Shown in pieces: positions 9,001 to 26,361 of a DNA stretch of 34,944 bases. The position numbers were made by a program, and so were the translations under genes. The stretch spans positions 1 through 34,944 of the IMG/VR virus record IMGVR_UViG_3300017985_000058. One strand, 5' to 3'. The notes beneath the pieces are model-generated. The model was not told the DNA's origin and searched no databases. It saw only the letters and a program-made list of their open reading frames with translations. Numbering within the stretch: position 1 is the first letter of the stretch; each line of letters begins with the position of its first letter. The stretch comes from a virus. Lineage: Duplodnaviria; Caudoviricetes.

Positions 9001-12000
9001 AAACATTGAATTAAAACTTAACAGCACAAGCTCAGGTGTATCTAAATCAGGTGATATTGTTCACTTACCATATGATATACAACCATTTACAAGCAACTAT
9101 CAAGCAAGTAAATATAAAAACCTAGTAACAGATTTATTATTTACTTGGACAGGTAATGTCGAATTAGATCCACCTGTAGATAATTTTGTTGATACAACAA
9201 CACGTCCAGCAGTTCAAGCCAACTTCGAAGGAAACTTTGATGCTTGGGAGAACATGGCCGATGCTTGGGGAACACAATGGGGTGCTTGGGAAGATGTCGG
9301 TGCGGCACAAGTTACAAGAGAAGACGTATCCGTAGATAGACAAGTAGCTGGAGGAACAGGTGGCTCAGACACATTTACAACAGTTACAACAACACAAAAA
9401 CAACAATCAGTAGGAACAAGCATTAGTGTTTCAGACGGAGGATTTGAATCTCAGTCATTAGGAAATAAAGTAGTAAGCACTGCTATTGTTCCATTCATGA
9501 GACAACTTGCTGTCAGATTTACAGCAACAAGATTAAAACCAAACACAAGAGTTTATCCGTTCTTTGACGGACAAGCAGTTAGTGAGCATTGTAGGGCAGA
9601 CTACAATAACTTAGGTGGCGAATTAGTCACAGATGTAAACGGAGACATCGCAGGATATTTTGTTATACCTGCAGGTGAATTTAGAACAGGAGCTAGAAAC
9701 TTTAGACTAGTAGATGAACCTAATAACAACGAAAAGGTTATAACAACTGTAGCAGAAGCATTATTCCAATCTTCAGGACTACATCAAGAAGTTCAAGATA
9801 CTATTGTTTCTATGAGAACAGCTCAGGTAGTAACAAACAGGGCTACAAAAGACAGAGTAATGACAGACGTTACTACAGGCTTTGTAGCAGGCGGAGGAAC
9901 ACCTTTACCACCCCCGGTAAGTGTTCCAGTTCCAGTCCCGGTTCCAGTTCCAGTCCCGGAGCCAGTATATATTCCGGTTCCAGCAACGGTTCAGAATCCG
10001 GAACCTACACCGCCCCCACCACCACCTGAGGAACCACCTCCACCACCACCTCCGCCACCACCTCCACCGCCCCCACCGCCTCCTCCACCACCACCCCCGG
10101 AGCCTATTCCTACTCCTGAGCCAGATGTTCAAGAGCCAGCAGTCTTCGATGTATGGGATAGAGGTGATTGGAGAGACTTTAACTTTGGTTGGGAATGGAG
10201 AAACTTTGGCCCAACAAGTCTCGATCCATTAGCACAAACATTTAAAGTGCAAGGACAAAAAGGCGGAGTATATATTGATTCCGTAGACTTGTTTATACAG
10301 TCTAAAGGAACATTGGGCTTAGAAGTTCAAATTAGAGAAGTTATTAACGGAGTCCCAGGACCTCGAATACTTCCTTTTGGTAAAAAATACTTAGCTGCTT
10401 CAGATATTCAAACAACTTATACATCTACTGATAATAAAACAATATTTAGAAATCAGAACTTTAAGTTCCCAGCACCTGTATTCTTACAAAACGACACAGA
10501 GTATTGTGTTGTCCCAATGCCTGAAGGAAACGATGAAGGCTATAACGTATGGGTAGCAGAACTAGGTGAAAATCAAGTAGATACAACACAAAGAATAACA
10601 AAACAAGCACATGGAGGTATATTATTCTCCTCATCAAATAACACATCGTGGACTCCTATACAATCAGAAGACATGATGTTTGGTGTTAATAAATGTGTAT
10701 TCCAAACAAATTCAACTGAAGATGCATATTTAGAAAATAAAGATTTAGACTGGATATCGTTTGAAGACTTTGCCACAGGAGATAGTTTTGAGCAAGGTAG
10801 ATATTTACACGCATTTAAATTTAATATTACATCAGGTGGAACAGGTTATTCATCAGCACCAACAGTTAGCTTCTCCGGAGGGGGAGGAACAGGTGCAGCA
10901 GCTACTGCAACAGTTTTAGCAGGAGCCGTTACAGCAATTACAGTAACAAATCCAGGAACAGGTTATACATCAGCACCTACTATTAGTTTAACAGGTGGTG
11001 GTGCTTCAGCAGATGCTACAATAACCGCAGAACTAAAACTAGGACAAGTTAAAGAATGGAATAGTTTATATAACTATGCAACAGTTCAAAATGCTACTAC
11101 AAATTTATATTTTGAAGTAGGTGATGTTGTAGGTAGTAGCGCAACGTATGCTACAATTTCATCCTTTACAAACAAGGTTGTAGACGCTCTAGCATTAACA
11201 GGAGGATTTACAACTCCAACAGACACAACATTAAGCGCTTCTCTTGCACTTACAAACACAGGAGCAGGAAGTGTTAATACAACTTACAGTGCGTTTGAAA
11301 AAGGCAAAACTGAAGAACTAACAGAACAGAAAACAATTTACAGTTGGTCCCAAGAAGGAACTTTATATTCAGGATCTAAAACAGGTAGAGTAAAACTAAC
11401 ATTAGGTTCTGATAATGCTAACCTATCACCAATGGTAGACTTGGCACAGATGTCAACATTAGCATTTAAAAACGATATTAATAATGTTTCAACTAACGAA
11501 ACAGGTAAAACAGGTGGAGACGCCGCATCTAAATATATTTCTAGAAGAGTAGTATTAGACGAAGGACAAGATGCTGAAGATCTAAAAGTTTACTTGACAC
11601 AACAATTACCAGCAGGAACATCAGTAAAAGCATATGGTAAATTTAAAAACCAAGGTGATGATGCTGACTTTAATACAGATTTAAATTGGATTGAGTTAGA
11701 ATCAGATGAAGTTCCAAACGATACACCTATAGGATATGGCGAATATAGATTTGGCATTCCATCTAAAGGAAGTAGCGATGCTGGATTAAATGGCAATGGT
11801 AAGTTTGAATATACATTACACAGAATTACAGGAATCACAGTTACAAACGGAGGCTCAGGATATACTTCGGCTCCAACTGTAACAATTTCACATAGCGGAA
11901 ACGGATTCGGAGCAACAGCAGAAGCAGAAATTTCAGCAGGCGCTGTTACAGCAATTAACATCATTAATCCAGGCAGAGATTATGATGGTGGAACTGTAAC

Positions 12001-12434: not shown

Positions 12435-12935
12435 ATGGCTACAATTACATTAAGATCTGTAAAAGGTTCGCCGTTAACAAATAACGAAGTCGATACTAAC
12501 TTTACTAATCTAAACAACGATAAATACGAATCAGGTGATGCAATAGCAGCATCTACTTTATCGGCGTCTAGTCACCTAACAGTTAGTGGAGAAACAACAC
12601 TATCTATTGACTCCTCAGTTACAGCTGCAGGAACAGATCAATCAGGAGCCACAGCCCTTACTAACACGTTTAATGTTGTAAATACAGCAACTGCTAACCA
12701 AGGCGTTAAATTACCCGACGCAACAACAGGTAAAGTAGTTACAGTATTAAACGACACATCCGTAAACGTTAAATTATACCCGGCGTCCTCAGAAAGTATT
12801 GATGCTCTATCATCTAATATTGCTAAAGACTTGCAAGCAGGACATTCATTAAGATTAGTGGCAGTATCTGGATCCAAATGGAACAGTTTACAGCCAGTTT
12901 TAATTTATGATTCAAGTGGAAATAGAGTTAATTAA
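12435..12935 (+). CDS. Short fibre/adaptor structural protein
   Basis: The N-terminus ITLRSVKGSPLTNNEVDTNFTNL is typical of phage fibre attachment segments. It has a V.LP.A..G..V.V.N domain and ends IYDSSGNRVN. Confidence 0.7.
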   Translation: MATITLRSVKGSPLTNNEVDTNFTNLNNDKYESGDAIAASTLSASSHLTVSGETTLSIDSSVTAAGTDQSGATALTNTFNVVNTATANQGVKLPDATTGKVVTVLNDTSVNVKLYPASSESIDALSSNIAKDLQAGHSLRLVAVSGSKWNSLQPVLIYDSSGNRVN

Positions 12936-12947
12936 TAGAGGAACCAA

Positions 12948-14270
12948 ATGAGACCATTAAGAATTAAAGCTTCGGCAACACCAATAACAAGTTCCAATTT
13001 CCAGGGCTTACAGGAAATGACGGATGCTGAAATAGAACAATATCTATCAGCAACAATAACAAACAAATTCGCAACTGATACAGACGGAACAGGTGCAGCA
13101 GAATTAAATGTTACAACAGACGCTTCAGGTTTAGGAGAAACAATAGGAACATTCGTAGATACAAGCAGAACAGAAACTATCGGAACTCACCCGGCAACAG
13201 GAGCTACATCAACTACAACTTACACATTCAAACAATGTGATGCGTTAGCAACAGAAAGTTTATCAAATAGGCCTGTTGGATACGACAGTGCTATTAAAGA
13301 GTTTACTGACAATGACTTAGACACAGATGTTTTAGATAAAGTTATTTCAGACATGGTAGGTGAAAGCGATTATACTGTTGGACAATACAAATTAGCTACA
13401 ACAGCACCTTCAGGTGGAACATGGACATCACGTTACACAATTACAGATACTGCACAAGGCGGTAATACATCTATTTACTTGTGGCAAAAAACAAGCCCTA
13501 CTTCATCAGCCAACTCAGATTTGGTCTCTCTTAAGGTTGAAGGTAGCAGCGGTGTTAAAATGATGTCATCTTCAGAAGTTGAACAAATGGTTCCTAACTT
13601 CCGAAACAGAATTTTACAAAACGGCATTGGTAAATACAAATTACAAAACTCAACACCATCAGATGCAGGAACATGGACTCAGATGGGAGATGCTTTTTCA
13701 AACACAATTCAACAAGTAGCATCAGAAAACTATGCAGGTTCATACACAGGTAGTTATGCTGGAACATACGCAGGTGACTACACAGGAGCTTATGCGGGTT
13801 CATATACAGGTAACTATGTAGGAGCTTACACAGGAGCTAAAAACTATACAGGAAGTTATAGTGGAACATACGCAGGCTCATACGCAGGAACATATGCAGG
13901 AACAAGTGCATATGCTGGAACATACGCAGGTGACTATTCTGGAACATACGCATTATCGTATGCAGGGTTTGTAGCAGCTTACTATACAGGAACATATACA
14001 GGTTACTATACTGGTTACTACACAGGTGCTAAAAACTATACAGGTTACTATTCAGGTGACTATACTGGTAACTACTCTGGAACTTATGCAGGAACAAGTG
14101 CATACTCCGGAACTTATGCTGGAACATACACCGGCTACTATTCTGGAACATATACAGGTAACTATTCTGGAACTTATTCAGGTGGTTATACAGGTTACTA
14201 TGCTGGTGATACAATACAAGCAACAAAAGATACAGTATCAACAGTTAAACTTTGGTTAAGAACAGCTTAA
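12948..14270 (+). CDS. Putative virion surface protein with three related beta domains and a 160-aa YxGx insertion
   Basis: GAGGA RBS. Repeated YKL....P..GTWT...(D/N)T....LW.(K/R) domains surround a Tyr/Gly tetrapeptide array. Confidence 0.75.
   Translation: MRPLRIKASATPITSSNFQGLQEMTDAEIEQYLSATITNKFATDTDGTGAAELNVTTDASGLGETIGTFVDTSRTETIGTHPATGATSTTTYTFKQCDALATESLSNRPVGYDSAIKEFTDNDLDTDVLDKVISDMVGESDYTVGQYKLATTAPSGGTWTSRYTITDTAQGGNTSIYLWQKTSPTSSANSDLVSLKVEGSSGVKMMSSSEVEQMVPNFRNRILQNGIGKYKLQNSTPSDAGTWTQMGDAFSNTIQQVASENYAGSYTGSYAGTYAGDYTGAYAGSYTGNYVGAYTGAKNYTGSYSGTYAGSYAGTYAGTSAYAGTYAGDYSGTYALSYAGFVAAYYTGTYTGYYTGYYTGAKNYTGYYSGDYTGNYSGTYAGTSAYSGTYAGTYTGYYSGTYTGNYSGTYSGGYTGYYAGDTIQATKDTVSTVKLWLRTA
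13731..14210 (+). repeat. 12-nt/4-aa periodic repeat encoding Y-[ATSV]-G-x, arranged 9-KN-5-SA-4-[YAGFVAAY]-4-KN-5-SA-9
   Basis: Units counted directly from the translation. 480 nt = 76 + 8 + 76 aa. One unit is the variant YALS. Confidence 0.95.
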
Positions 14271-14334: not shown

Positions 14335-14979
14335 ATGGCAAAAAAGAAACCCCAAGATGTAGAAATCGCACTAGACAAGGTATCTATTACCCAAGTCGAC
14401 GAAGCATCTGCCACAAAACCTCAATTAAAATACGAATTCCCTTACTGGTCCAATAAAGAAGCTAGACATCTTATTGTTCACATTGTAGATGAACAAGGAA
14501 GAAAACAACTAGCATCTATTATGGATAAAGATGGAACTAATCCAGATATGAAGGCTGTATTAGAACAATTTACAGAAGAAGAAATTGATGCTAATACAAA
14601 AGAGGGATTAGACAGACGTAATGAAAACATTAAACGACAAATGGAAAGACGCGAAACTGAAAAAGTTAGAGCGGCCCAAGAAATGTTGTTTGCTGCTAAG
14701 TTAGATGCGTTTGAGATTCCTGCTATTAAGGCATCAAAAGATATTGAACTTAAAAAATTAATTCGTAAATCTAAAACACCAATGGAAGTATCAGCATACG
14801 CAACAATACTTTTAAATAAAGAAATGCAAGGTGATGAATTAGAACAAGTTAAATATGACGCACTAAACATTGAGACAATTAAAAAGTCTAAAAAGACTAA
14901 ACTTAAAAAACAAATCAAAGAAGCTAGTAGCATAACAGAAGTTCATGTATTAGCAGCGGCGCTTTTACAGGACAGTTAA
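14335..14979 (+). CDS. Hypothetical charged helical protein with a duplicated C-terminal ~45-aa unit (possible assembly chaperone)
   Basis: 214-aa ORF downstream of the sigma70 promoter, with a visible internal duplication. Confidence 0.7.
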   Translation: MAKKKPQDVEIALDKVSITQVDEASATKPQLKYEFPYWSNKEARHLIVHIVDEQGRKQLASIMDKDGTNPDMKAVLEQFTEEEIDANTKEGLDRRNENIKRQMERRETEKVRAAQEMLFAAKLDAFEIPAIKASKDIELKKLIRKSKTPMEVSAYATILLNKEMQGDELEQVKYDALNIETIKKSKKTKLKKQIKEASSITEVHVLAAALLQDS

Positions 14980-15110
14980 TGCAAACGTATGTTTGTGGCG
15001 TCTGTAAAATATTATTTTCAGAACTTAAATATTGGAACGAAGAAGATAAAGTTCCATTCTGTGGACCTAAGTGTAGTTTAAAATACCATGAAGAAAAAAG
15101 AAACAAATAG
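14979..15110 (+). CDS. 43-aa CxxC-x18-CxxxC metal-binding protein (TRASH/MYM-like), absent from the ORF track
   Basis: MQTYVCGVCKILFSELKYWNEEDKVPFCGPKCSLKYHEEKRNK*. It has a TAATG overlap with the upstream stop and an AGGA RBS at 14969-14972, and it fills the gap between genes. Confidence 0.75.
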   Translation: MQTYVCGVCKILFSELKYWNEEDKVPFCGPKCSLKYHEEKRNK

Positions 15111-15840
15111 AGAAGGCGAAGGCTTTGTAATTGTAGCAACAAAGAACGATCCATTCTTTTTTGCTGCTATGAGATTAGCAGAATCTATATTAGACTTTTG
15201 GCCTGAAGCTAGAATAACTTTATACACAGAAGAAAAATGGATCAACGGTCCTGAGTCATTACTTGAACCTGATTGGTATCAAATGTTTGAAAACGTAATT
15301 ACTTGGGAAGTTCCTAATCATATACGAGCAAAATTATGGGCGTTAGAACATACACCTTATAAGACAACTTGTTATTTAGATTGTGATATGTATTGCGAAC
15401 ACGAGGACATTAAGGACATATTTAAAACACTTGGCGACAAAGATTTGGTGTTTACAAAAATACGTCCCTATAATGCAAAAGTAACAAAATTATCAAACAC
15501 AGAAGAAATGACTGCCCATTGTGGTTGGTTTGTTTATAACGACAAACCTCAAACATTAGCATTGATGAGTGCATGGTATGGCGAATATTTAAAACAAAAT
15601 GAAAATGAAAAAGGCGTTTATACACATGACATAGGAGATTATCCTGACGATGTAAGAAAGTGGGACACGTTTACAATGTGGAAGCTACTTACATATAGTG
15701 AACACGGTGTTGATTGGGGATTTGTAGAAGAGCCTGACGCACGTTGGAACTTTGTTAATGGATATCATTGGGATGAATTAGGCGGACTAGATCCTGTTTT
15801 ATATCATTACACTATATCACATCACGAGCAAACAAAATGA
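15088..15840 (+). CDS. GT-A fold glycosyltransferase (nucleotide-diphospho-sugar transferase, GT8/GT77-like)
   Basis: RAKLWAL..TPY..T.YLDCD (DxD motif), WDTF..W, RWN and a C-terminal YHY histidine. Confidence 0.75.
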   Translation: MKKKETNREGEGFVIVATKNDPFFFAAMRLAESILDFWPEARITLYTEEKWINGPESLLEPDWYQMFENVITWEVPNHIRAKLWALEHTPYKTTCYLDCDMYCEHEDIKDIFKTLGDKDLVFTKIRPYNAKVTKLSNTEEMTAHCGWFVYNDKPQTLALMSAWYGEYLKQNENEKGVYTHDIGDYPDDVRKWDTFTMWKLLTYSEHGVDWGFVEEPDARWNFVNGYHWDELGGLDPVLYHYTISHHEQTK

Positions 15841-16490
15841 AGTGGACTAATCAAATATCTGACGAAACATTAGAACTATTACAACCATATACCGACTGGT
15901 TTTTCTCACAAGACTTAACAAAACTAGAAGAAAGAATAGACGAAAAAAGAGCAGGAGATTATAATATCGAGACTGCTACTAATGAAGACTATTTAAATAT
16001 GATTGTTAAAAAGGACGGTGAACATATAGGTTACCCAGAGCACACACATTCAATAGATATATTAATGGACGGCAGAACACCTAGTGAACATAGGGAAAAA
16101 TGTCAAACACTTAATCAAGAAGTAGTTTCTTATTTAGGAGCTAGAAATCAAGCAGTTCAAGTTTATTATCCAGCAAACGGATTTATGTCTTGGCATAATA
16201 ATTGGAATGCTCATGGATATAATATATTATTATCATATACAAAAACAGGTAATGGCTTTTTTAAATATCGAGATCCTTTAACACACGAAATAGTAACAAT
16301 GGAAGACAAACCAGGTTGGGGCTGTAAAGTAGGTTATTATGGAAGAGGCAGAGAGCCAGATAAAGTTTATTATCATTGTGCTGGTGCTTATGAAGATAGG
16401 ATTACCTTAGGGTTTGTTATTCCTAATGTAGATATGTGGAGAAATATGATTGAGGACATATCTGGGGAAGACGCCTCGATGTTTAGTTAA
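15837..16490 (+). CDS. 2OG-Fe(II) oxygenase-like (DSBH fold) protein
   Basis: YYP.NGFMSWHNN ... YYHCA ... RITLGF, giving an H-x-N...H triad and a distal Arg. ATGA coupling to the upstream GT. Confidence 0.65.
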   Translation: MKWTNQISDETLELLQPYTDWFFSQDLTKLEERIDEKRAGDYNIETATNEDYLNMIVKKDGEHIGYPEHTHSIDILMDGRTPSEHREKCQTLNQEVVSYLGARNQAVQVYYPANGFMSWHNNWNAHGYNILLSYTKTGNGFFKYRDPLTHEIVTMEDKPGWGCKVGYYGRGREPDKVYYHCAGAYEDRITLGFVIPNVDMWRNMIEDISGEDASMFS

Positions 16491-16870
16491 ATATTTATTG
16501 CTGTAATTTTATTTGTATCTATTTCAACTTGTTCTAAGTCAAAGTTTATACTCACCCCACACCCACAAGAATCCTTTTCCTTAGGGTTTACAAATTTAAA
16601 AAATTCATTTAGGCCTTCTGTTTGCCAATCTAATGTCATTCCCACTATGTAAGGTATAGATATTTTATCTATTACTACGCCGAACCTACCATAATCAACA
16701 AATATATCATCAGACATATCGCCGTTATCATTAATAGAGTCGAAAACGTATTCAAAGCCAGCGCAACCTCCGCCTGTAATTCCGAGTCGGATGTTTTTAA
16801 AGCCGTCTTTTTCTTGTTTCTCAAGAAGTTTCTGTATCGCATTATCTGTGATTTCGATTACGTTAGACAT
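16487..16870 (-). CDS. iscA: A-type Fe-S cluster carrier, IscA/SufA/HesB family
   Basis: I.ITD.A, IRLG..GGGCAGFEY, G..LD and F.F.NP....SCGCG.S, with all three conserved Cys present. Confidence 0.92.
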   Translation of the reverse strand: MSNVIEITDNAIQKLLEKQEKDGFKNIRLGITGGGCAGFEYVFDSINDNGDMSDDIFVDYGRFGVVIDKISIPYIVGMTLDWQTEGLNEFFKFVNPKEKDSCGCGVSINFDLEQVEIDTNKITAINI

Positions 16871-16884: not shown

Positions 16885-17556
16885 TTACTTTTTGCCAATC
16901 GCCATAAATCTATCGTAAAACTTTTTGCCGTCCCAACTGTAATAATATTGAACTGTCTTACCTGTATAGTAAGTATCTTTTAACCCAGCATTTTTAATTA
17001 ATGCATCTTCACTATCTACACAATTAATACCATACATTTCTTCTATAACATTAGAATTTTGTATAGCAAAAATAGCATGTTTGTTAGCAGTTTTCAATTC
17101 ATCTAATGGATACATCTGCTCGCAACCTAATGAAATAACTACATCAACATTTAATTGATTTAGCTGGTCAAATGCAAAAGGAATGTCTAAGTTCCAATGA
17201 TTAATTTTAATATACTCTTCCGAAATATAATGTTTATTAAATACCTTAGATAATTCTAATGCTTCATTGTCGATATCAACTAAATGTAATTGCCCAACAC
17301 TTAAATTCTCACAAAGTAGTGGGACAAGTGGAACACCTAACCAACTGTTTAATACAAGAATATTGAACTCACTATCTTTAAGATAATGTTCGTCTAAAAC
17401 TTTTTTAAGTTCTTCAACCATCCATATCCCAGCTTCCATTGTGTTTGGATTAAGTGCTTGTCTAAAGTCATCGTGCTTGTGTTTCATCTCATGCTCAACT
17501 TTAGCAAGTCCGTCGCCCCAATGTTTGAGGTTATTTAAAAAATTAAAATTTAACAT
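16885..17556 (-). CDS. Class I SAM-dependent methyltransferase-like protein (degenerate motif I)
   Basis: ILVLNSWLG, LVDID..A, CEQM and a terminal RFMAIGKK. The ATG at 17556 is preferred over 17580 because it gives less overlap. Confidence 0.55.
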   Translation of the reverse strand: MLNFNFLNNLKHWGDGLAKVEHEMKHKHDDFRQALNPNTMEAGIWMVEELKKVLDEHYLKDSEFNILVLNSWLGVPLVPLLCENLSVGQLHLVDIDNEALELSKVFNKHYISEEYIKINHWNLDIPFAFDQLNQLNVDVVISLGCEQMYPLDELKTANKHAIFAIQNSNVIEEMYGINCVDSEDALIKNAGLKDTYYTGKTVQYYYSWDGKKFYDRFMAIGKK

Positions 17557-18220
17557 CTTCTTTTCTTCCCATTGAATCAAATAAGCATACGAAAGGAATT
17601 TTTCGATATACTTGTTTTTCTATATCGTGAGGATATATGTAACCTTGGTTAAAACTATATGCCCACCCAATAGGAAAATATTTTATTCTCGCAACACCTC
17701 GGTGATGAAAGAAGTTATCTATTCCCCTATAATACCAAAGTATTTTATCTATATGTGTTTGAAAATAGATACTAATATCTTCGGTGTTTAAATTATCATT
17801 CCAACGCAAAACAGAACTATTTAAGTCTGTAAATTTATGTGGAATGTGCCTTGTTTCTTTGTATTGTTTTTCCATATCGTGCCAATGTGTTTTAATAAAA
17901 ACTAAACAGTCTTCGGCCTCATAGTCTACAATCTCTTGAATGTCTTTTTGTATAATAACATCTAAGTCGAAAAATAATTTTTCTCCTTTTTGTCTTACTA
18001 CATTCTCATCAAACAGATACATTTTGTTCCACCACTTTTCCATTTTATTTCCGTGTGGTAGAGGTATAACATTTATATCCTCACTTAAACCTTGTGGGTT
18101 TTCTGTAAGGCAATAAAATTTAAATTCAGTAGAGCAAAACTTTTTACAAGAATCATATATTGCTTGCACGTGATGTGCAGAATATTTGTTGCCCCACTTT
18201 ACTGTATAAATGTTTATCAT
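17543..18220 (-). CDS. GT-A glycosyltransferase, KWG.KY paralog
   Basis: VKWGNKY, FYCLTE, WWNK..LF, FFDLDVII and NSSV..W. The start at 18220 is supported by an ATGA overlap with the upstream stop. Confidence 0.8.
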   Translation of the reverse strand: MINIYTVKWGNKYSAHHVQAIYDSCKKFCSTEFKFYCLTENPQGLSEDINVIPLPHGNKMEKWWNKMYLFDENVVRQKGEKLFFDLDVIIQKDIQEIVDYEAEDCLVFIKTHWHDMEKQYKETRHIPHKFTDLNSSVLRWNDNLNTEDISIYFQTHIDKILWYYRGIDNFFHHRGVARIKYFPIGWAYSFNQGYIYPHDIEKQVYRKIPFVCLFDSMGRKEDVKF

Positions 18221-19035
18221 ACTGTCCAATGTGCTAATAGTTTAGGATCTACTAAATCGTGTTGTTTAGTATGTCCTCTAGAGTTATCTTCAAAAGGTAA
18301 TAAGTCTACGTTGAATACACATAGAATACAACCTGGGCGATATATGCCTACTTCTAAATCACCACTATCCCAATCTCTTCCTCTATTAAATGAGTAGGCA
18401 AACTCTGAAGGAAAGTGATTCCAAAGTTTCTTGTCTCCGAAGTCACCCCATCTCCAAGAGTGATAATTGTCTGTGCCATCTGTATATGTAAACCATATTT
18501 TTTCTTGGTTCTCTAATACATCTTGCCATATACATTCTGCTTGGTCGTCGCTCCATATTTGACAACTCCCATTTGTATATGCACCGTGGGATAATTTAAA
18601 TCTTCTTGTTTTCATAGGACGTGGGTCCTGCCACCAACTTTTTAATTTAGTTGGCCTTTCCATGTCATATGTTAGTAAAGGTTCTAAGTCTTGTTGTATA
18701 ATAACATCTAAGTCAAAGAATACAAATCTTCCTGTAGGTTTATCCTCAGCAAAATTATGTGTATTAAATACAAATGTTTTTGGCCTATCCCAACAACGTG
18801 CCATGCCATATTTAAAGTCCTCTGTCTCAAACCAATATTTAGGATGTATGTTAGGAATATCTGGGAAGTCAATAACTTTAATGTCGTCATCTAATCCTTC
18901 GGCGTCATCTGTATAACAATAAAAATGAACCTCATGTTGTTCTTGTGTATTATGGAATGCCATTCTTTTTAGGCGATTTACAAAATGAGGACCATATCGT
19001 GTTCCCCACTTAGCGCATACATAATTAACTCTCAT
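18217..19035 (-). CDS. GT-A glycosyltransferase, KWG.KY paralog
   Basis: CAKWGTRY, FYCYTDD, CWDRPK, FFDLDVII, NGS and GTDNY. The start at 19035 has a GGAGG RBS. Confidence 0.8.
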   Translation of the reverse strand: MRVNYVCAKWGTRYGPHFVNRLKRMAFHNTQEQHEVHFYCYTDDAEGLDDDIKVIDFPDIPNIHPKYWFETEDFKYGMARCWDRPKTFVFNTHNFAEDKPTGRFVFFDLDVIIQQDLEPLLTYDMERPTKLKSWWQDPRPMKTRRFKLSHGAYTNGSCQIWSDDQAECIWQDVLENQEKIWFTYTDGTDNYHSWRWGDFGDKKLWNHFPSEFAYSFNRGRDWDSGDLEVGIYRPGCILCVFNVDLLPFEDNSRGHTKQHDLVDPKLLAHWTV

Positions 19036-20533
19036 TACAGCCTCCGCATTTCTTATTACAAACACTTGCAGGATCTAGTTTTAATTTATTATTAAAATAT
19101 CCTTTAAAAAATTTGTTTGTTAAAATGTCTTCTAGTTTATTTATTTTACAATTATTATCTTCCCAATCATATAATATATCCGTATCTTCGTATGGATTTA
19201 TTTTAGCTTCTAATATATTCTTAGCAGTATATACACATGGGAAAACGTTTCCTGTTTTGTCTATATAACATTCGTTGTCTATTTTGGCCTTACACAGCAC
19301 TTTTCTGTCGAATTTGACCTTAATCTCTCTATATTCTGCGTCTTTTTCGACTGCTTTAATAGTTTCTAGTTCAATGAGTTTATAATCTGGAACTGGCTCT
19401 TTTTCTATTGTTTTTGTTTCGATAATGTCTACTTCTTCAACCTTAGCTTCAATAAAATTAAATCCTGTAAAGTTATGTTTAATACTTAATTGTTTAGCAG
19501 ATTGTATATCCTCATTCGTTTGTGTTGTTCTTGTGTATTGCCAAAACACTCTTGCTCCTGATTGTAATAGTGCCTTAGCATTTTGTAACTGTTTTTCGTA
19601 TTTAGGCCCTGTATGCTCATTCATAATTACAGTAAAGTTACCCATTGTTCTAAACAATATGCCTAATACTCCCCAAAAGTGAGCATCTTCTGTTAGCAAG
19701 TCTGTTGTAATGTCTACACTAATGCCACCTTCCTCTATTAAGTAATGGCATATATCATGTAATTCCTCATTAGATGCTGGGTCCTCAACATCATTTGATA
19801 ATTGTATTTTAGTTATTCTTGCTCTTTGTAATAGTTCTTGATTAAATATCTTTTTAATTTCTTCTAAACTATATCCTGTGATTTCCATCTCTATTTGATT
19901 AGGCAAATAAGAGTATAAGTCAACGGCTCTATTATAACAGTTCTTTATATAATTCTCATCTTTATGCACATACCAATAAGGTATCGTTATAATAGGAGCC
20001 TCTAATTCTGTGGGATATTCTTTTGTGTAATCTTTTAGGAAAGGAAAGTTTTCTAATTCATTTACTTGGAATGCTTGACTAAATTCACCGTTCATAAATG
20101 TTATATCATCTTCCTCATTGTCCCACTTTTTAATAATGTTTTCTACAACATTATTTCTATATACAAAGTATGCTAAGTTTTCATCAGCAAGTTTTACTTT
20201 ATCTAATCCTGTTGTTTTATAATTTACAATTTTACTAGGATTATTTAAAATAATATTAGGAGTTACAAATAAACTAATACCGTTTGGTTTTGTATGTTTT
20301 ATTAAATCTATTTCTAACCATTCTCTGCCATATTTAGGAACGTGAAAATGTATGCCTTGTATAAAGCCATCTATCTTTTTTGTTTCTTTTATGTGTTCTA
20401 ATTCGTCAGGTGTAGTAAAGACAACAAAGTCAAAAGGATCTACAATGCTGTTTTTGCATTGTGTATAAAAGTTATTGATGTGCGTTTGACTATACTTATT
20501 ATCTAAGTAGTTAACGATTATAGTTAGGTCCAT
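19025..20533 (-). CDS. Fusion of a degenerate GT-like domain, a degenerate radical-SAM barrel and a SPASM/Twitch-like Cys domain
   Basis: The N-terminus parallels the neighbouring GTs but lacks DxD. The central region has radical-SAM-like motifs but no CxxxCxxC. The C-terminus reads C...YID..G.VFPC...W....L.DIL...C.KKC. Confidence 0.6.
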   Translation of the reverse strand: MDLTIIVNYLDNKYSQTHINNFYTQCKNSIVDPFDFVVFTTPDELEHIKETKKIDGFIQGIHFHVPKYGREWLEIDLIKHTKPNGISLFVTPNIILNNPSKIVNYKTTGLDKVKLADENLAYFVYRNNVVENIIKKWDNEEDDITFMNGEFSQAFQVNELENFPFLKDYTKEYPTELEAPIITIPYWYVHKDENYIKNCYNRAVDLYSYLPNQIEMEITGYSLEEIKKIFNQELLQRARITKIQLSNDVEDPASNEELHDICHYLIEEGGISVDITTDLLTEDAHFWGVLGILFRTMGNFTVIMNEHTGPKYEKQLQNAKALLQSGARVFWQYTRTTQTNEDIQSAKQLSIKHNFTGFNFIEAKVEEVDIIETKTIEKEPVPDYKLIELETIKAVEKDAEYREIKVKFDRKVLCKAKIDNECYIDKTGNVFPCVYTAKNILEAKINPYEDTDILYDWEDNNCKINKLEDILTNKFFKGYFNNKLKLDPASVCNKKCGGCNES

Positions 20534-21278
20534 GCCAATGTCTCAATAATTTTTCATCCTTTAAATCACCTATGTCAATTTGTTTATGTTTATTAGGCCC
20601 TGGTGTAAGGTCTGTATTAAATAAACAAATTTTATAGTCTTCTCTATATTTATGTATCTCTAAATCACTTCTTCTAGCACCTCTATTGTATGAATACACC
20701 CATTCTTTAGGTATATCCCTCCAGAAGTCTCGCTGTCTCCAATAGTGATAATTGTCTGTTCCTTTAAAAAATGTTTTGAATATAGCGTCAGAGTTTTCCA
20801 ACGCATCATAATAAATGTGTTCTGCCTGTTTTCCTTGCCAACACATTACACTAGAGTTATAAAATGTTCCTCTAATGTCTATCCAAAGTCTGTCGTGTTT
20901 TAATTTTTGTGGTTGCCAATGAGAATAAATTATTCTTGGCTTTTTTGCTAGTTCGTTTAAATCATTTATTTTGCCATGTATAATTACATCTAAATCTAAA
21001 TAACACCAGCCACCTTCATATCCTAGCCATTTGTGAGAATTGAACATTAAAAATTTTGCTCTATCCCAACAATAATTTTCTTTTCCAAACCAATACTTAG
21101 GATGTAAAGGATTTATATCTGGAATGGGCATAGTATCACAACCTACACCCTCATTCTCATCTGTAAAACAGGTAAAAGTAAATGGTTTAGTATAATGTCT
21201 ACTAACCATATTATATAGATTATTTACATAATCCGCAGAGTATTTGTTACCCCACTTTATGCAGACAAAGTTTATCAT
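20511..21278 (-). CDS. GT-A glycosyltransferase, KWG.KY paralog
   Basis: CIKWGNKYS.DYVN.L, FTCFTD, CWDRAK, YLDLDVII, NSSVM.W and GTDNY. Confidence 0.82.
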   Translation of the reverse strand: MINFVCIKWGNKYSADYVNNLYNMVSRHYTKPFTFTCFTDENEGVGCDTMPIPDINPLHPKYWFGKENYCWDRAKFLMFNSHKWLGYEGGWCYLDLDVIIHGKINDLNELAKKPRIIYSHWQPQKLKHDRLWIDIRGTFYNSSVMCWQGKQAEHIYYDALENSDAIFKTFFKGTDNYHYWRQRDFWRDIPKEWVYSYNRGARRSDLEIHKYREDYKICLFNTDLTPGPNKHKQIDIGDLKDEKLLRHWHGPNYNR

Positions 21279-21939
21279 ATAATACTTTTAAATCCTCATT
21301 AAAATTAATTGAACCGTTTAATAAACAGATATTAAATTCTTCTCTTATTTTAGGATAGCCTCCTAATGTTCCGTAATCACCTATCTCAAAATCGGCACCA
21401 TAAGCAAACGAATATATGTATTCTTTTGGGAAATAATCAAACTTAAATCCTTCGTGCCACAGAAACCTATCATCACCAGCATATTTAACCATGAAGTAAT
21501 CTTTGTTATTTACAAAGTGTTCGTATATATGCGTGGCATCTTCCCACATCATTACACTAGAATTATGATTGCTAATGTAATTCTCACTCCAATTTTTAGA
21601 AACTTGTTTGTAATGCTCAGGGTGTTTCCAATAAGTATAACATATCATTGGGTTTTTGTCAAGCATTTTAAACAAATTATCTATAGGTTTTTGTATTACA
21701 ACGTCTAAATCTAAGTATAATATACGTCCTAAGTTATTTATTTTAAATAATTTTACTTTTTCCCAATGTCCCTCAGGTTCCCAGGTTATAGGAATTACTT
21801 CAATATTAGGATTTAAGCCCTTTTTATTGTCCGTGACACAGACAAATCTACGGTTTTCCCCGCATTGATTATAAATATCATTGACGTGTTCTGCGTCAAA
21901 TTTATTTCCATATTTTAATGTTAAAATTGTTTGGTTCAA
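21247..21939 (-). CDS. GT-A glycosyltransferase, KWG.KY paralog
   Basis: LKYGNKF, FVCVTD, W.K..LF, YLDLDVVI, NSSVM.W and GDD. A TTG start at 21939 with an AAGGA RBS 7 nt upstream matches the paralog N-termini and removes the overlap with the divergent gene. Confidence 0.8.
   Translation of the reverse strand: MNQTILTLKYGNKFDAEHVNDIYNQCGENRRFVCVTDNKKGLNPNIEVIPITWEPEGHWEKVKLFKINNLGRILYLDLDVVIQKPIDNLFKMLDKNPMICYTYWKHPEHYKQVSKNWSENYISNHNSSVMMWEDATHIYEHFVNNKDYFMVKYAGDDRFLWHEGFKFDYFPKEYIYSFAYGADFEIGDYGTLGGYPKIREEFNICLLNGSINFNEDLKVLYDKLCLHKVG
21870..21877 (+). promoter_or_regulatory. Possible second late promoter TATAAATA, antisense within the GT gene
   Basis: Exact consensus about 110 nt upstream of 21990. 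Confidence 0.4.
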
Positions 21940-21950
21940 TATATAATCCT

Positions 21951-21958
21951 TATAAATA
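21951..21958 (+). promoter_or_regulatory. T4-type late promoter TATAAATA heading the fibre/neck operon
   Basis: Exact consensus in the divergent intergenic gap, 31 nt before the ATG. Confidence 0.8.
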
Positions 21959-21989
21959 ACATTATATGACATTAGGGTAGATTCATCAT

Positions 21990-22316
21990 ATGGCAACAAT
22001 ACAGAATATAGTTATAGATCAAGGAACCACTTATTCGTTAGACTTAACTTTGACTAACGATGATGGGACTGCCAAGGACTTAACTTCTTATACTGTAACT
22101 TCCCAATTAAGAAGATCCTACCATACTAATACTTATACAGATTTTACGACGCAAAAAGTCAATGATACAGGAACTATTACCATTTCTTTAAGTGCTACTC
22201 AAACAAGTGCATTAAAACAAGGTAGATATGTTTATGACATTGAAATTGCGGACAGTTCTGAAACTCTTAGAGTTTTAGAAGGAATAGTAACGGTAACGCC
22301 CGAGGTAACCAGATAA
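21990..22316 (+). CDS. Ig-like virion adaptor (BppU N-terminal-like)
   Basis: NIVIDQG.T, DLT.YT..SQLR.SY, G.I.ISL.A.QT..L..GRYVYDIEI and RVLEG.V.V.P.VT. Confidence 0.7.
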   Translation: MATIQNIVIDQGTTYSLDLTLTNDDGTAKDLTSYTVTSQLRRSYHTNTYTDFTTQKVNDTGTITISLSATQTSALKQGRYVYDIEIADSSETLRVLEGIVTVTPEVTR

Positions 22317-24885: not shown

Positions 24886-26361
24886 ATGCCAACTCAATTA
24901 CAATTTAGGCGAGGAACAGAGTCACAAAATGATGCATTTACAGGTGCTGCTGGTGAGTTATCTTTCGATACAGAAAACAACGTCCTTAGGATTCACGACG
25001 GATCTACCCAAGGTGGTTACAAATTAGTTAAAAATGCTGATGCGTTAACCAGCTCGTCCGACACAGATGACCTTACTGAGGGCTCAACTAATCTGTATTT
25101 CACAAACGCTAGAGCGAGAGGCTCAATTAGTGTATCCGGAGATTTAAGTTACGACTCTTCAACTGGTGTTATTAGTTTTACTAATGACGCTGGAGATATA
25201 GAATCTGTTTCAGCAGGTTCCGGTTTAACAGGTGGCGGTGCTTCAGGCGCAGTTACTTTAAACATTGGAGCAGGAACAGGTATAACAGTTAATGCAGATG
25301 ACGTAGCGGTTAATATGTCCGCTTTCGATACAGACGATTTAACAGAAGGTTCAGGGAACCAATATTTTACATCAGCTAGAGCACAGGCTGCTATTTCAGC
25401 AACAGGTGATTTAAGTTACGATAACTCTACAGGTGTTATGTCCTTCACAGAAAGAACAGACACAGAAGTTAGAGGTTTATTATCCGTAACAGATGCAGGT
25501 GGAGATGGTTCTTTAGGTTACAACAGTTCAACTGGTGTTATTACTTACACAGGCCCTAGCGCTACAGAAGTAAGAGCACATATTTCAGCAGGAACAGGTG
25601 TAACATTATCTTCAGGTGAAATTAGTATCGGGCAGGCAGTTGCCACCAACAGTAATGTAACGTTCAATGATTTAGTAGTAGACGGAGACTTAACAGTTAA
25701 CGGAGCTACAACATCAGTAAACACAGAAACATTGACAGTAGATGACAACATTATTGTTCTAAACAATAACGTAACAGGAACACCTACTGAAGACGCAGGT
25801 ATCGAAATAGAAAGAGGAACTTCGGCTAACAAATCATTCTTCTGGGATGAGTCTGAAGACAAATGGAGCTTAGGCTCAGAAACATTAGTCGCAGGCACAG
25901 TCGAGGCAAACTTAACAGGAACAGTTACAGGTAATGTAACAGGTAACGTAACTGGAACAGTTTCAAGTCTTTCAAATCAAGATACAGACAGTCTGACTGA
26001 AGGTTCAAGCAACCTATATTACACAGACGCTAGAGCAGATGCAAGAGTTAACCTTCAAACAGGAGCAAACTTAGATCTTAGCAGTAAAGATACTGACGAC
26101 GTAAGTGAAGGATCCAGCAATTTATATTACACAGATGCTCGTTCTAGAGCAGCTATTAGTGTAGCTGGTGACTTATCTTATAACTCATCAACGGGTGCAA
26201 TAAGTTTCTCAGAAACTTATTCAAGTGCAACAGAATTACTAAACGCCCTACTTACAGTAGACGGCGCAGGTAGCGGATTAGATGCTGACACATTAGATGG
26301 ACAATCGGGTTCATATTATAGAGTTAACATTTACAACGCTAGTGGCACATTACTCAATTAA
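24886..26361 (+). CDS. Tail fibre-like protein with TDDL.EGS.N.Y.T.AR repeats
   Basis: AGGAG RBS, an LQFRRGT head, GDLTVNG.TT.VN, DG.GSGLDAD.LDG and a terminal IYNASGTLLN. Confidence 0.85.
   Translation: MPTQLQFRRGTESQNDAFTGAAGELSFDTENNVLRIHDGSTQGGYKLVKNADALTSSSDTDDLTEGSTNLYFTNARARGSISVSGDLSYDSSTGVISFTNDAGDIESVSAGSGLTGGGASGAVTLNIGAGTGITVNADDVAVNMSAFDTDDLTEGSGNQYFTSARAQAAISATGDLSYDNSTGVMSFTERTDTEVRGLLSVTDAGGDGSLGYNSSTGVITYTGPSATEVRAHISAGTGVTLSSGEISIGQAVATNSNVTFNDLVVDGDLTVNGATTSVNTETLTVDDNIIVLNNNVTGTPTEDAGIEIERGTSANKSFFWDESEDKWSLGSETLVAGTVEANLTGTVTGNVTGNVTGTVSSLSNQDTDSLTEGSSNLYYTDARADARVNLQTGANLDLSSKDTDDVSEGSSNLYYTDARSRAAISVAGDLSYNSSTGAISFSETYSSATELLNALLTVDGAGSGLDADTLDGQSGSYYRVNIYNASGTLLN
25060..26210 (+). 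repeat. Dispersed protein repeats: four DTD(D/S)(L/V).EGS.N.Y(F/Y)T.AR units and four (L).Y(D/N).STG units
   Basis: Seen in the translation of 24886..26361. Confidence 0.85.

What the first reader, a model, noticed from the sequence alone, without database searches (positions are those of the whole stretch)
13731..14210. Mirror-symmetric YxGx array: a predicted ~25-nm tyrosine-lined beta-hairpin needle
Seen: the tetrapeptides parse exactly as 9-KN-5-SA-4-[YAGFVAAY]-4-KN-5-SA-9, two 76-aa arms around an 8-aa centre. Folded at the centre, each KN bulge faces an SA bulge of the other arm. The array is inserted at the position where the preceding paralogous domain has only a short turn (DT-AQGGN-TSIYLWQK versus NT-IQQ..[array]..TVSTVKLWLR). 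Inference: the register is under selection because the arms pair as one long antiparallel hairpin (76 aa x ~3.3 A) with a hydrophobic GFVAA tip. It could act as a probe or adhesin that reaches through capsule or LPS, and it carries regular Tyr/Thr/Ser hydroxyls. Simple slippage would not preserve this symmetry.
Basis: partly seen in the sequence, partly recalled or inferred. Interest (0 to 1): 0.88.

Follow-up and report, generated by a model that had tools for sequence, protein, structure and literature searches.

The report
Self-pairing hairpin cap on phage fibre
A tail-region protein of an uncultured salt-marsh phage has two tyrosine-glycine repeat arms that match each other back-to-front and stay equal in length across relatives, so it likely folds into one thread-thin hairpin about 26-29 nm long, predicted to sit as a single cap on a three-chain fibre and likely used to reach the host surface.

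Summary
Observation confirmed. The parse 9-KN-5-SA-4-[8]-4-KN-5-SA-9 is exact, and the array recurs without gaps in other runs. Folded at F341, 18 of 18 left Tyr face Gly, 17 of 17 left Gly face Tyr/Phe, and each Lys faces a Ser. KN and SA are therefore in-register pairs, not bulges. In homologs the two arms differ by a constant 8-10 residues in 165 of 168 proteins, over arms of 33-189 aa. 22 proteins fit only a reverse-complement order of the K/S inserts; none fits only direct copying. The body is three repeats with a beta-prism-like fold. A model of three copies of the upstream protein plus one copy of this protein scored 0.82 against a best control of 0.00 (mark reached by 116 of 157 solved and 2 of 215 mismatched pairs). 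This points to a monomeric cap carrying one two-stranded ribbon, not a trimeric needle. AF2 does not fold the middle of the long arm. Adhesion is inferred; the host is unknown. The scan found this family before on other DNA; the 3:1 cap was not in the notes I saw.

The parts
12948..14270 (+). Cap protein gene, 440 aa: three-repeat body plus the hairpin array in repeat 3
   Evidence: no Pfam, PHROG or NCBIfam match
12984..13235 (+). Repeat 1 (aa 13-96), with predicted docking strand 13-25 and the G79-H81-P82 loop
   Evidence: HMM E 1.2e-16; interface; invariant columns
13257..13499 (+). Repeat 2 (aa 104-184), short-turn hairpin, predicted docking strand 108-121
13530..13730 (+). Repeat 3, N-terminal part (aa 195-261), predicted docking strand 197-207 and outgoing stem
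   Evidence: HMM E 7.1e-19
13731..13958 (+). Outgoing arm, aa 262-337, with K298 and S320
13959..13982 (+). Tip, aa 338-345, centre F341; family core Y-[SA]-G-[YF]-[AV]-G
13983..14210 (+). Returning arm, aa 346-421, with K362 (faces S320) and S384 (faces K298)
14211..14267 (+). Returning stem and last strand, which completes repeat 3
   Evidence: AF2 strand 409-438, last block pLDDT 97
12435..12935 (+). Upstream 166-aa fibre-like protein; modelled as a trimer whose C-terminal strand (aa 155-166, 12897-12932) docks on each repeat
   Evidence: adjacent in 75 of 75 loci with room; complex; its head domain ends a 1257-aa protein of phage RsoM2USA
6041..12169 (+). 2042-aa DUF4815 structural protein opening the conserved gene block
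14335..16490 (+). Three co-conserved downstream genes (214, 250, 217 aa), no family at cut-off; possible chaperone or modifying enzymes (labels from my reading, not from a call)
   Evidence: each present in 65 of 65 loci with room

Best explanation
This is a tail-region protein of a T4-like phage whose two Tyr-x-Gly-x arms match back-to-front and likely fold into one two-stranded beta-hairpin about 26-29 nm long, predicted to project from a three-repeat body that would cap a trimer of the upstream gene product and likely serves as a thin first-contact probe for the host. How it would work: residues i and 682-i pair. One face holds only Tyr:Gly, Gly:Tyr and Lys:Ser pairs, each ring lying over the partner Gly, which would let a lone ribbon fold without a second sheet. 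The other face is Thr/Ala/Ser. The K:S inserts lock the otherwise slippery 4-residue register. Length changes by adding matched units to both arms. Shown: the sequence rule and its co-variation. Predicted: the body fold, the hairpin base and the 3:1 complex. Inferred: a single-chain ribbon to the tip, presence on the virion, and adhesion. My odds: antiparallel arm pairing 0.95; intramolecular hairpin 0.85; 3:1 cap 0.75; host-contact role 0.55.
For: Register: 35 of 35 left Tyr/Gly complementary at sum 682, 0 of 35-36 at +-2, 30 of 35 at +-4. Over 176 homologs left Tyr faces Gly 2093 of 2240 times and left Lys faces Ser 187 of 197 times. Arms: right minus left is 8-10 in 165 of 168. On a tree of the body, left length changes 59 times, right 58, both jointly 60; 65 of 69 large contrasts share sign. 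K/S order: 22 proteins in 5 architectures fit mirror-complement only, 0 fit direct copy only. Residue level, 40 representatives: Phe faces non-Gly 51 of 164, Tyr 39 of 988; odds ratio 11 at the register and 0.5-2.4 when slid by 4-12. AF2 of a short homolog gives strands 249-280 and 287-328 with pTM 0.82. Complex: 0.82 vs best control 0.00, runs agree in at least 94% of contacts, partner pLDDT at least 72; the mark was reached by 116 of 157 solved and 2 of 215 mismatched pairs; one upstream tail binds each repeat. Synteny 75 of 75. The gene lies where pelagimyophages have their host recognition cluster (PMC7029224, passages).
Against: AF2 leaves 277-397 of the window protein under pLDDT 50, and the short homolog's tip is only 48-53. 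Two homologs are lopsided (P0020, P0043), 8 of 176 had no tip motif and were left out, and 8 of 168 fit neither order. The branch-weighted contrast correlation is only 0.56. Among 104 distant relatives the best single register falls at the expected place in 32 (two are zero-score ties), and in only 1 of the 16 inserts over 400 aa. Phe also associates with non-Gly on its own strand (OR 4.2 and 2.6), and cells are not independent. The complex job is unlike the tool's calibration (own alignments, four chains), and I imposed the trimer. The tip is conserved, unlike the hypervariable segments of gp38 (PMC12032242). No host, no virion proteomics, no binding data.
Confidence: 0.6

Rival explanations
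1. Same monomeric hairpin, but its main job is to be a scaffold for modification: the Thr/Ser face (41 of 76 outward residues) is glycosylated or otherwise decorated by the neighbouring enzymes, giving a shield or a sugar lure rather than a bare probe.
For: Outer-face composition. Three opposite-strand neighbours match glycosyltransferase phrog_1962 and one matches GT8 below cut-off. The downstream genes travel with this gene in 65 of 65 loci. An earlier scan note proposed the same (e1-6009065).
Against: No substrate is shown. Thr is also simply the favoured beta-strand residue (own knowledge). PMC7029224 (passages) reads such enzymes as modifying the host O-chain.
Confidence: 0.17
2. Domain-swapped dimer: the arms pair between two chains in the same register, giving a rod of about 55 nm with a body at each end that links two fibre trimers.
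For: All co-variation results fit intermolecular pairing equally well. AF2 does not fold the centre confidently.
Against: The centre tolerates +-1 residue (differences 7-10) and has conserved Gly and often Pro, as in a turn. Some relatives have inserts of only 23-45 aa. AF2 closes the hairpin in the short homolog.
Confidence: 0.1
3. Several hairpins bundle into a barrel, as three gp37 chains form the T4 needle.
For: A lone ribbon of this length has no precedent that I found. Repeat ends resemble the end of T4 gp11 by eye, with a weak VIA hit (Z 2.2, rmsd 3.7, 44 aligned).
Against: The body already has three repeats, and all three are occupied in the 3:1 model. The array has no His for iron sites.
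Confidence: 0.1
4. A low-complexity or disordered linker grown by slippage, symmetric by chance or by one block duplication.
For: Low pLDDT in the middle; 12-nt direct repeats in the DNA; KS|KS in the window fits a direct copy.
Against: 22 vs 0 discriminating orders and joint length changes on the tree; constant arm difference.
Confidence: 0.03

Closest known systems
Gp38 adhesin of T2/T6-type Straboviridae (PMC12032242, passages)
   Same: Monomer at the tip of a tail fibre (gp37); here a 1:3 arrangement is predicted.
   Different: Gp38 has an attachment domain, a beta-helix and a polyglycine II sandwich with hypervariable loops. Here the body is three repeats joined to the fibre by strand contacts, and it carries one long hairpin with a conserved tip.
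T4 gp37 needle, D10/D11 (PMC6957217, passages)
   Same: An elongated insertion into a small base domain, at a fibre tip that binds the host.
   Different: gp37 is a homotrimer with seven His-bound irons and no tetrapeptide repeat. Here there is no His in the array, a Tyr:Gly/Lys:Ser pairing rule, and arms of 33-189 aa among close homologs.
MABP-type beta-prism domains: Plu-MACPF 2qp2, Mp2Ba1 8b6v, MVB12B 3tow, perforin-2 P2 6sb1 (PMC7593815, passages)
   Same: Best fold matches for the body (Z 5.4-7.5, rmsd 3.6-5.5, 114-122 aligned). Perforin-2 also carries an extended hairpin whose tip binds membranes.
   Different: Z under 8 may be a common arrangement. Identity is 6-15%. The perforin-2 tip is flanked by basic residues and has no repeat array; the tip here has none.
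Tyr-Gly mortise-tenon motif of outer-membrane beta-barrels (PMC5542473, passages)
   Same: Tyr ring laid over a Gly on the neighbouring strand, locking the strands.
   Different: There it is one or a few pairs inside a membrane barrel. Here about 35 pairs run in a row along what would be a free two-stranded ribbon.

Membership tests
T4 gp37/gp12 collar-plus-needle fibres | His-coordinated iron sites along the needle | tested here: not met
   No His in residues 262-421.
T4 gp37/gp12 collar-plus-needle fibres | Collar fold shared with gp10/gp11/gp12 | tested here: inconclusive
   Repeat HMM vs gp11 E 0.11 among 12 T4 proteins; hhalign probability 1%; VIA Z 2.2, rmsd 3.7, 44 aligned in one model; Atlas lead Gp10_C at 0.77 in 24% of members.
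T4 gp37/gp12 collar-plus-needle fibres | Homotrimer | not tested
T4 gp37/gp12 collar-plus-needle fibres | Elongated insertion into a base domain | tested here: met
Gp38 adhesin | Monomer bound to the tip of a trimeric fibre | tested here: inconclusive
   Predicted only: 0.82 vs 0.00; trimer imposed by me.
Gp38 adhesin | Beta-helix plus polyglycine II sandwich from glycine-rich motifs | tested here: not met
   Models show three alpha/beta repeats and a hairpin; Gly occurs singly every fourth residue; no Pfam or PHROG match.
Gp38 adhesin | Binds an outer-membrane receptor | not testable with these tools
   Host unknown.
MABP beta-prism domain | Beta-prism fold with internal three-fold repeat | tested here: inconclusive
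   Three repeats; top 4 of 48,161 chains in both models, Z 5.4-7.5, under the level the tool calls distinctive.
MABP beta-prism domain | Basic residues round a hydrophobic lipid-binding tip | tested here: not met
   No Lys or Arg among the four commonest residues at any of 12 tip columns; nearest Lys is 21 residues from F341.
MABP beta-prism domain | Binds acidic lipids | not testable with these tools
   Needs a binding assay.

The most novel reading that the evidence does not exclude
A new class of fibrous protein fold: a free-standing, single-chain, two-stranded beta-ribbon written in a reverse-complement code (Tyr:Gly, Lys:Ser, Phe:Gln/Asn), like a DNA hairpin made of protein. It is tunable from about 11 to over 60 nm by paired insertions, and mounted as a one-chain pseudo-trimeric cap on trimeric phage fibres across a large uncultured aquatic T4-like group.
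Probability: 0.6. Interest if true: 0.88.

Novelty: new variant of a known kind. Interest (0 to 1): 0.76.

Why it matters
Phage fibres are mostly trimers, and lone beta-hairpins of tens of nanometres are not a fold I could find described. If the ribbon is real, it adds a fibrous architecture with a readable pairing code that can be tested by swap mutants and used to build rods of chosen length. It also shows evolution keeping two distant parts of one chain matched through about 60 joint length changes. It names a likely host-contact part, and its mounting partner, for an abundant phage group with no cultured member in the collection searched. The family has 461 clusters at 50% identity.

Tried and rejected
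Family libraries gave nothing for the protein: Pfam (also repeats and 15 relatives at loose cut-off), PHROGs (30 relatives), NCBIfam. PDB by sequence gave no hit better than E 0.038. Foldseek gave no hit at E<=0.001 in PDB or BFVD. Cultured phages gave no tblastn match with two queries. GTDB genomes: 34 pattern hits, none confirmed. T4 collar homology by sequence was not significant, and the weak gp11 row was not listed for the second model. Symmetry at the DNA or RNA level was rejected. The Atlas lead PF26209 for the upstream protein was not reproduced in a Pfam scan of 48 members, and passages of the phiTE paper (PMC11972413) said nothing useful. Genes beside the head-domain matches in RsoM2USA and LucasX are not cap homologs. 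A scripted count of arrays in repeat 1 parsed only 32 of 150 proteins and stopped with an error, so that point rests on reading 23 sequences. Six RNA runs hold part of the stretch as contigs (one laid), which does not show expression. Uneven cover in three runs proves nothing. Ice binding by the Thr face was considered from memory and not tested.

Full report
Setting. The window is a 34,944-base contig of a T4-like myovirus: baseplate wedges, neck, terminase, sheath, tube and portal. Its portal is 52-55% identical to those of Pelagibacter phages Mosig and HTVC008M, Methylophilales phage Melnitz and cyanophages. Runs that hold it are mostly salt marsh, with some marine and freshwater. The finding lies in ORF 12948-14270 (440 aa), just after the 2042-aa DUF4815 protein. 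In pelagimyophages the stretch between VrlC and the neck gene is called the host recognition cluster (PMC7029224, passages); that DUF4815 here is VrlC is my recall. The ORF has no Pfam, PHROG or NCBIfam match.

Observation. The parse is exact. Another run with 27 other letters carries the array without a gap up to 14179, and one near-identical run spans it whole. There is no inverted DNA repeat, and RNA folding does not pair the arms.

The pairing rule. Put residue i opposite 682-i. Then 18 of 18 left-arm Tyr face Gly, 17 of 17 left-arm Gly face Tyr or Phe, K298 faces S384 and S320 faces K362. Shifting by 2 gives 0 matches; shifting by 4 gives 30 of 35, because the K/S inserts break the phase. 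So the inserts are not bulges. They keep the in/out alternation and act as register locks. One face has 36 Tyr, 35 Gly, 2 Lys, 2 Ser and 1 Leu; the other has 27 Thr, 19 Ala, 14 Ser and 16 others. Tyr lying flat over a Gly of the next strand is the mortise-tenon motif of outer-membrane barrels (PMC5542473, passages).

Homologs. I pooled 66 and 80 IMG/VR loci (overlapping) with the best 120 of 567 proteins: 182 distinct sequences, 176 complete. A tip motif, located without using symmetry, occurred once in 168 of 176; the other 8 were left out. Right minus left arm is 9 in 149, 8 or 10 in 16, 7 in one, and far off in two; left arms run from 33 to 189 aa. On a FastTree tree of the body, left length needs 59 changes, right 58 and the pair 60. 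Of 69 contrasts of a unit or more, 65 share sign and 59 are equal within 1.5 aa. The branch-weighted correlation is only 0.56, probably because the two outliers sit on short branches. The outliers, P0020 (22 extra residues left) and P0043 (left deletion), were each seen on one contig and may be misassemblies or uncompensated steps.

Mirror or copy. The window's order KS|KS fits both a hairpin and a direct duplication. Other orders decide: KKS|KSS (12), S|K (5), KKKS|KSSS (3), K|S (1) and KKSSKKK|SSSKKSS (1) fit only reverse-and-complement. None fits only direct copy, 138 fit both and 8 fit neither. At residue level, in 40 representatives, Phe faces a non-Gly residue 51 of 164 times and Tyr 39 of 988 times. 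The odds ratio is 11 at the register, 0.5-2.4 when slid, and 4.2 and 2.6 for own-strand neighbours (cells are inherited, not independent).

Distant relatives. A profile search found 461 clusters at 50% identity, with inserts of 23-1228 aa among 118 complete ones of the 150 listed. The best single register falls at the expected place in 32 of 104 tested, among 67 offsets (two are zero-score ties; ties favoured that place). It does so in only 1 of 16 inserts over 400 aa, so the very long ones are not shown to be simple ribbons. In four of 23 sequences I read, an array with the same kind of tip sits in the hairpin of repeat 1 (P0270, P0220, P0256, P0237), which fits the idea that each repeat offers an equivalent insertion site.

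Fold. The body is three repeats. AF2 with 84 sequences gives the body pLDDT mostly above 90 and strands 250-271 and 409-438, but leaves 277-397 under 50. A 330-aa homolog folds with pTM 0.82 and strands 249-280 and 287-328, confidence falling evenly from base (94-95) to tip (48-53). Both models match only MABP-type beta-prisms at Z 5 or more among 48,161 chains (Z 5.4-7.5), a level the tool calls middling. Perforin-2 uses this fold with an extended hairpin that binds membranes by its tip (PMC7593815, passages). Kinship to the T4 collar is not shown.

Mounting. Three repeats in one chain suggested a cap for a trimer. The upstream 166-aa gene is adjacent in 75 of 75 loci with room, and 46 of 48 homologs end in the same tail motif. 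Three copies of it plus one cap scored 0.82, best of 3 controls 0.00; runs agree in at least 94% of contacts and partner pLDDT is at least 72. The mark was reached by 116 of 157 solved complexes and 2 of 215 mismatched pairs, counts that hold only roughly here. Residues 155-160 of each copy touch the equivalent strand of repeats 1, 2 and 3. This supports binding; it does not show it, and I imposed the trimer. I found no like solved complex by sequence. The same head domain ends a 1257-aa protein of phage RsoM2USA, which lacks the tail and has no cap homolog beside it: one case, in line with tail and cap going together.

Mechanism. The cap closes the tip of a short trimeric fibre and sends out one ribbon. 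At about 3.3 A per residue (recalled) that is 26 nm for the array and 29 nm with the stem. Staggered Tyr-over-Gly pairs would give the ribbon a core without a second sheet, K:S pairs fix the register, and matched insertions set the reach. The conserved aromatic tip likely makes first contact with a common surface feature. It would work like gp38, a monomer on the fibre tip (PMC12032242, passages), and like the gp37 needle, an insertion into a base domain (PMC6957217, passages), but it is a member of neither family. Rivals are a modification scaffold, a domain-swapped rod and a bundle of hairpins.

Novelty. Searches for a phage tetrapeptide hairpin, aromatic rescue in hairpins, YxGx with bacteriophage and a two-stranded Tyr/Gly ribbon fibre gave 0, 1, 3 and 0 papers; I saw only listings, none on this protein. 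Searches were listings too. The library lacks most subscription papers, and I opened no supplements. The scan has reported this family on other DNA, with the same hairpin reading; those notes are not independent support. I saw no 3:1 cap in the excerpts shown. Verdict: real, under selection, most likely a new way to build a phage fibre tip; function inferred. Interest 0.76.

Noticed in passing
window 24886-26361 (+): This 491-aa fibre protein (Mtd_N at its start) is the only other ORF in the window that ends in the same tail motif as the upstream partner, so it may take the same cap.
   Followed up: partly
window 16885-21999 (-) and 15088-16490 (+): A cluster of glycosyltransferase-like and unassigned genes that stays beside the cap gene in related loci.
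   Followed up: partly
window 16487-16870 (-): IscA-type iron-sulfur assembly gene; found at 97-98% identity in three related loci only (L091-L093), which suggests a recent shared gain.
   Followed up: partly
window 9921-10104 (+), inside the 2042-aa ORF: A long Pro-rich run (VP repeats, then poly-Pro) in the DUF4815 protein.
   Followed up: no
L133:4084, L139:5001, L144:3254: A subfamily uses Arg-Thr inserts on both arms instead of K/S; in L133 they are mirror-placed at a constant sum, a self-complementary pair.
   Followed up: partly
window aa 79-82 of ORF 12948-14270 (13182-13193): G79, H81 and P82 in the repeat-1 hairpin loop are invariant in 84 of 84 aligned homologs but are not in the listed interface; role unexplained.
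   Followed up: no
P0159, P0166, P0197, P0199, P0218, P0266, P0267: Some distant relatives carry whole extra domains inserted between or within the repeats.
   Followed up: no
L095 and L116/L119: About 1.4 kb of extra DNA lies between the cap gene and the 214-aa gene; content not read.
   Followed up: no
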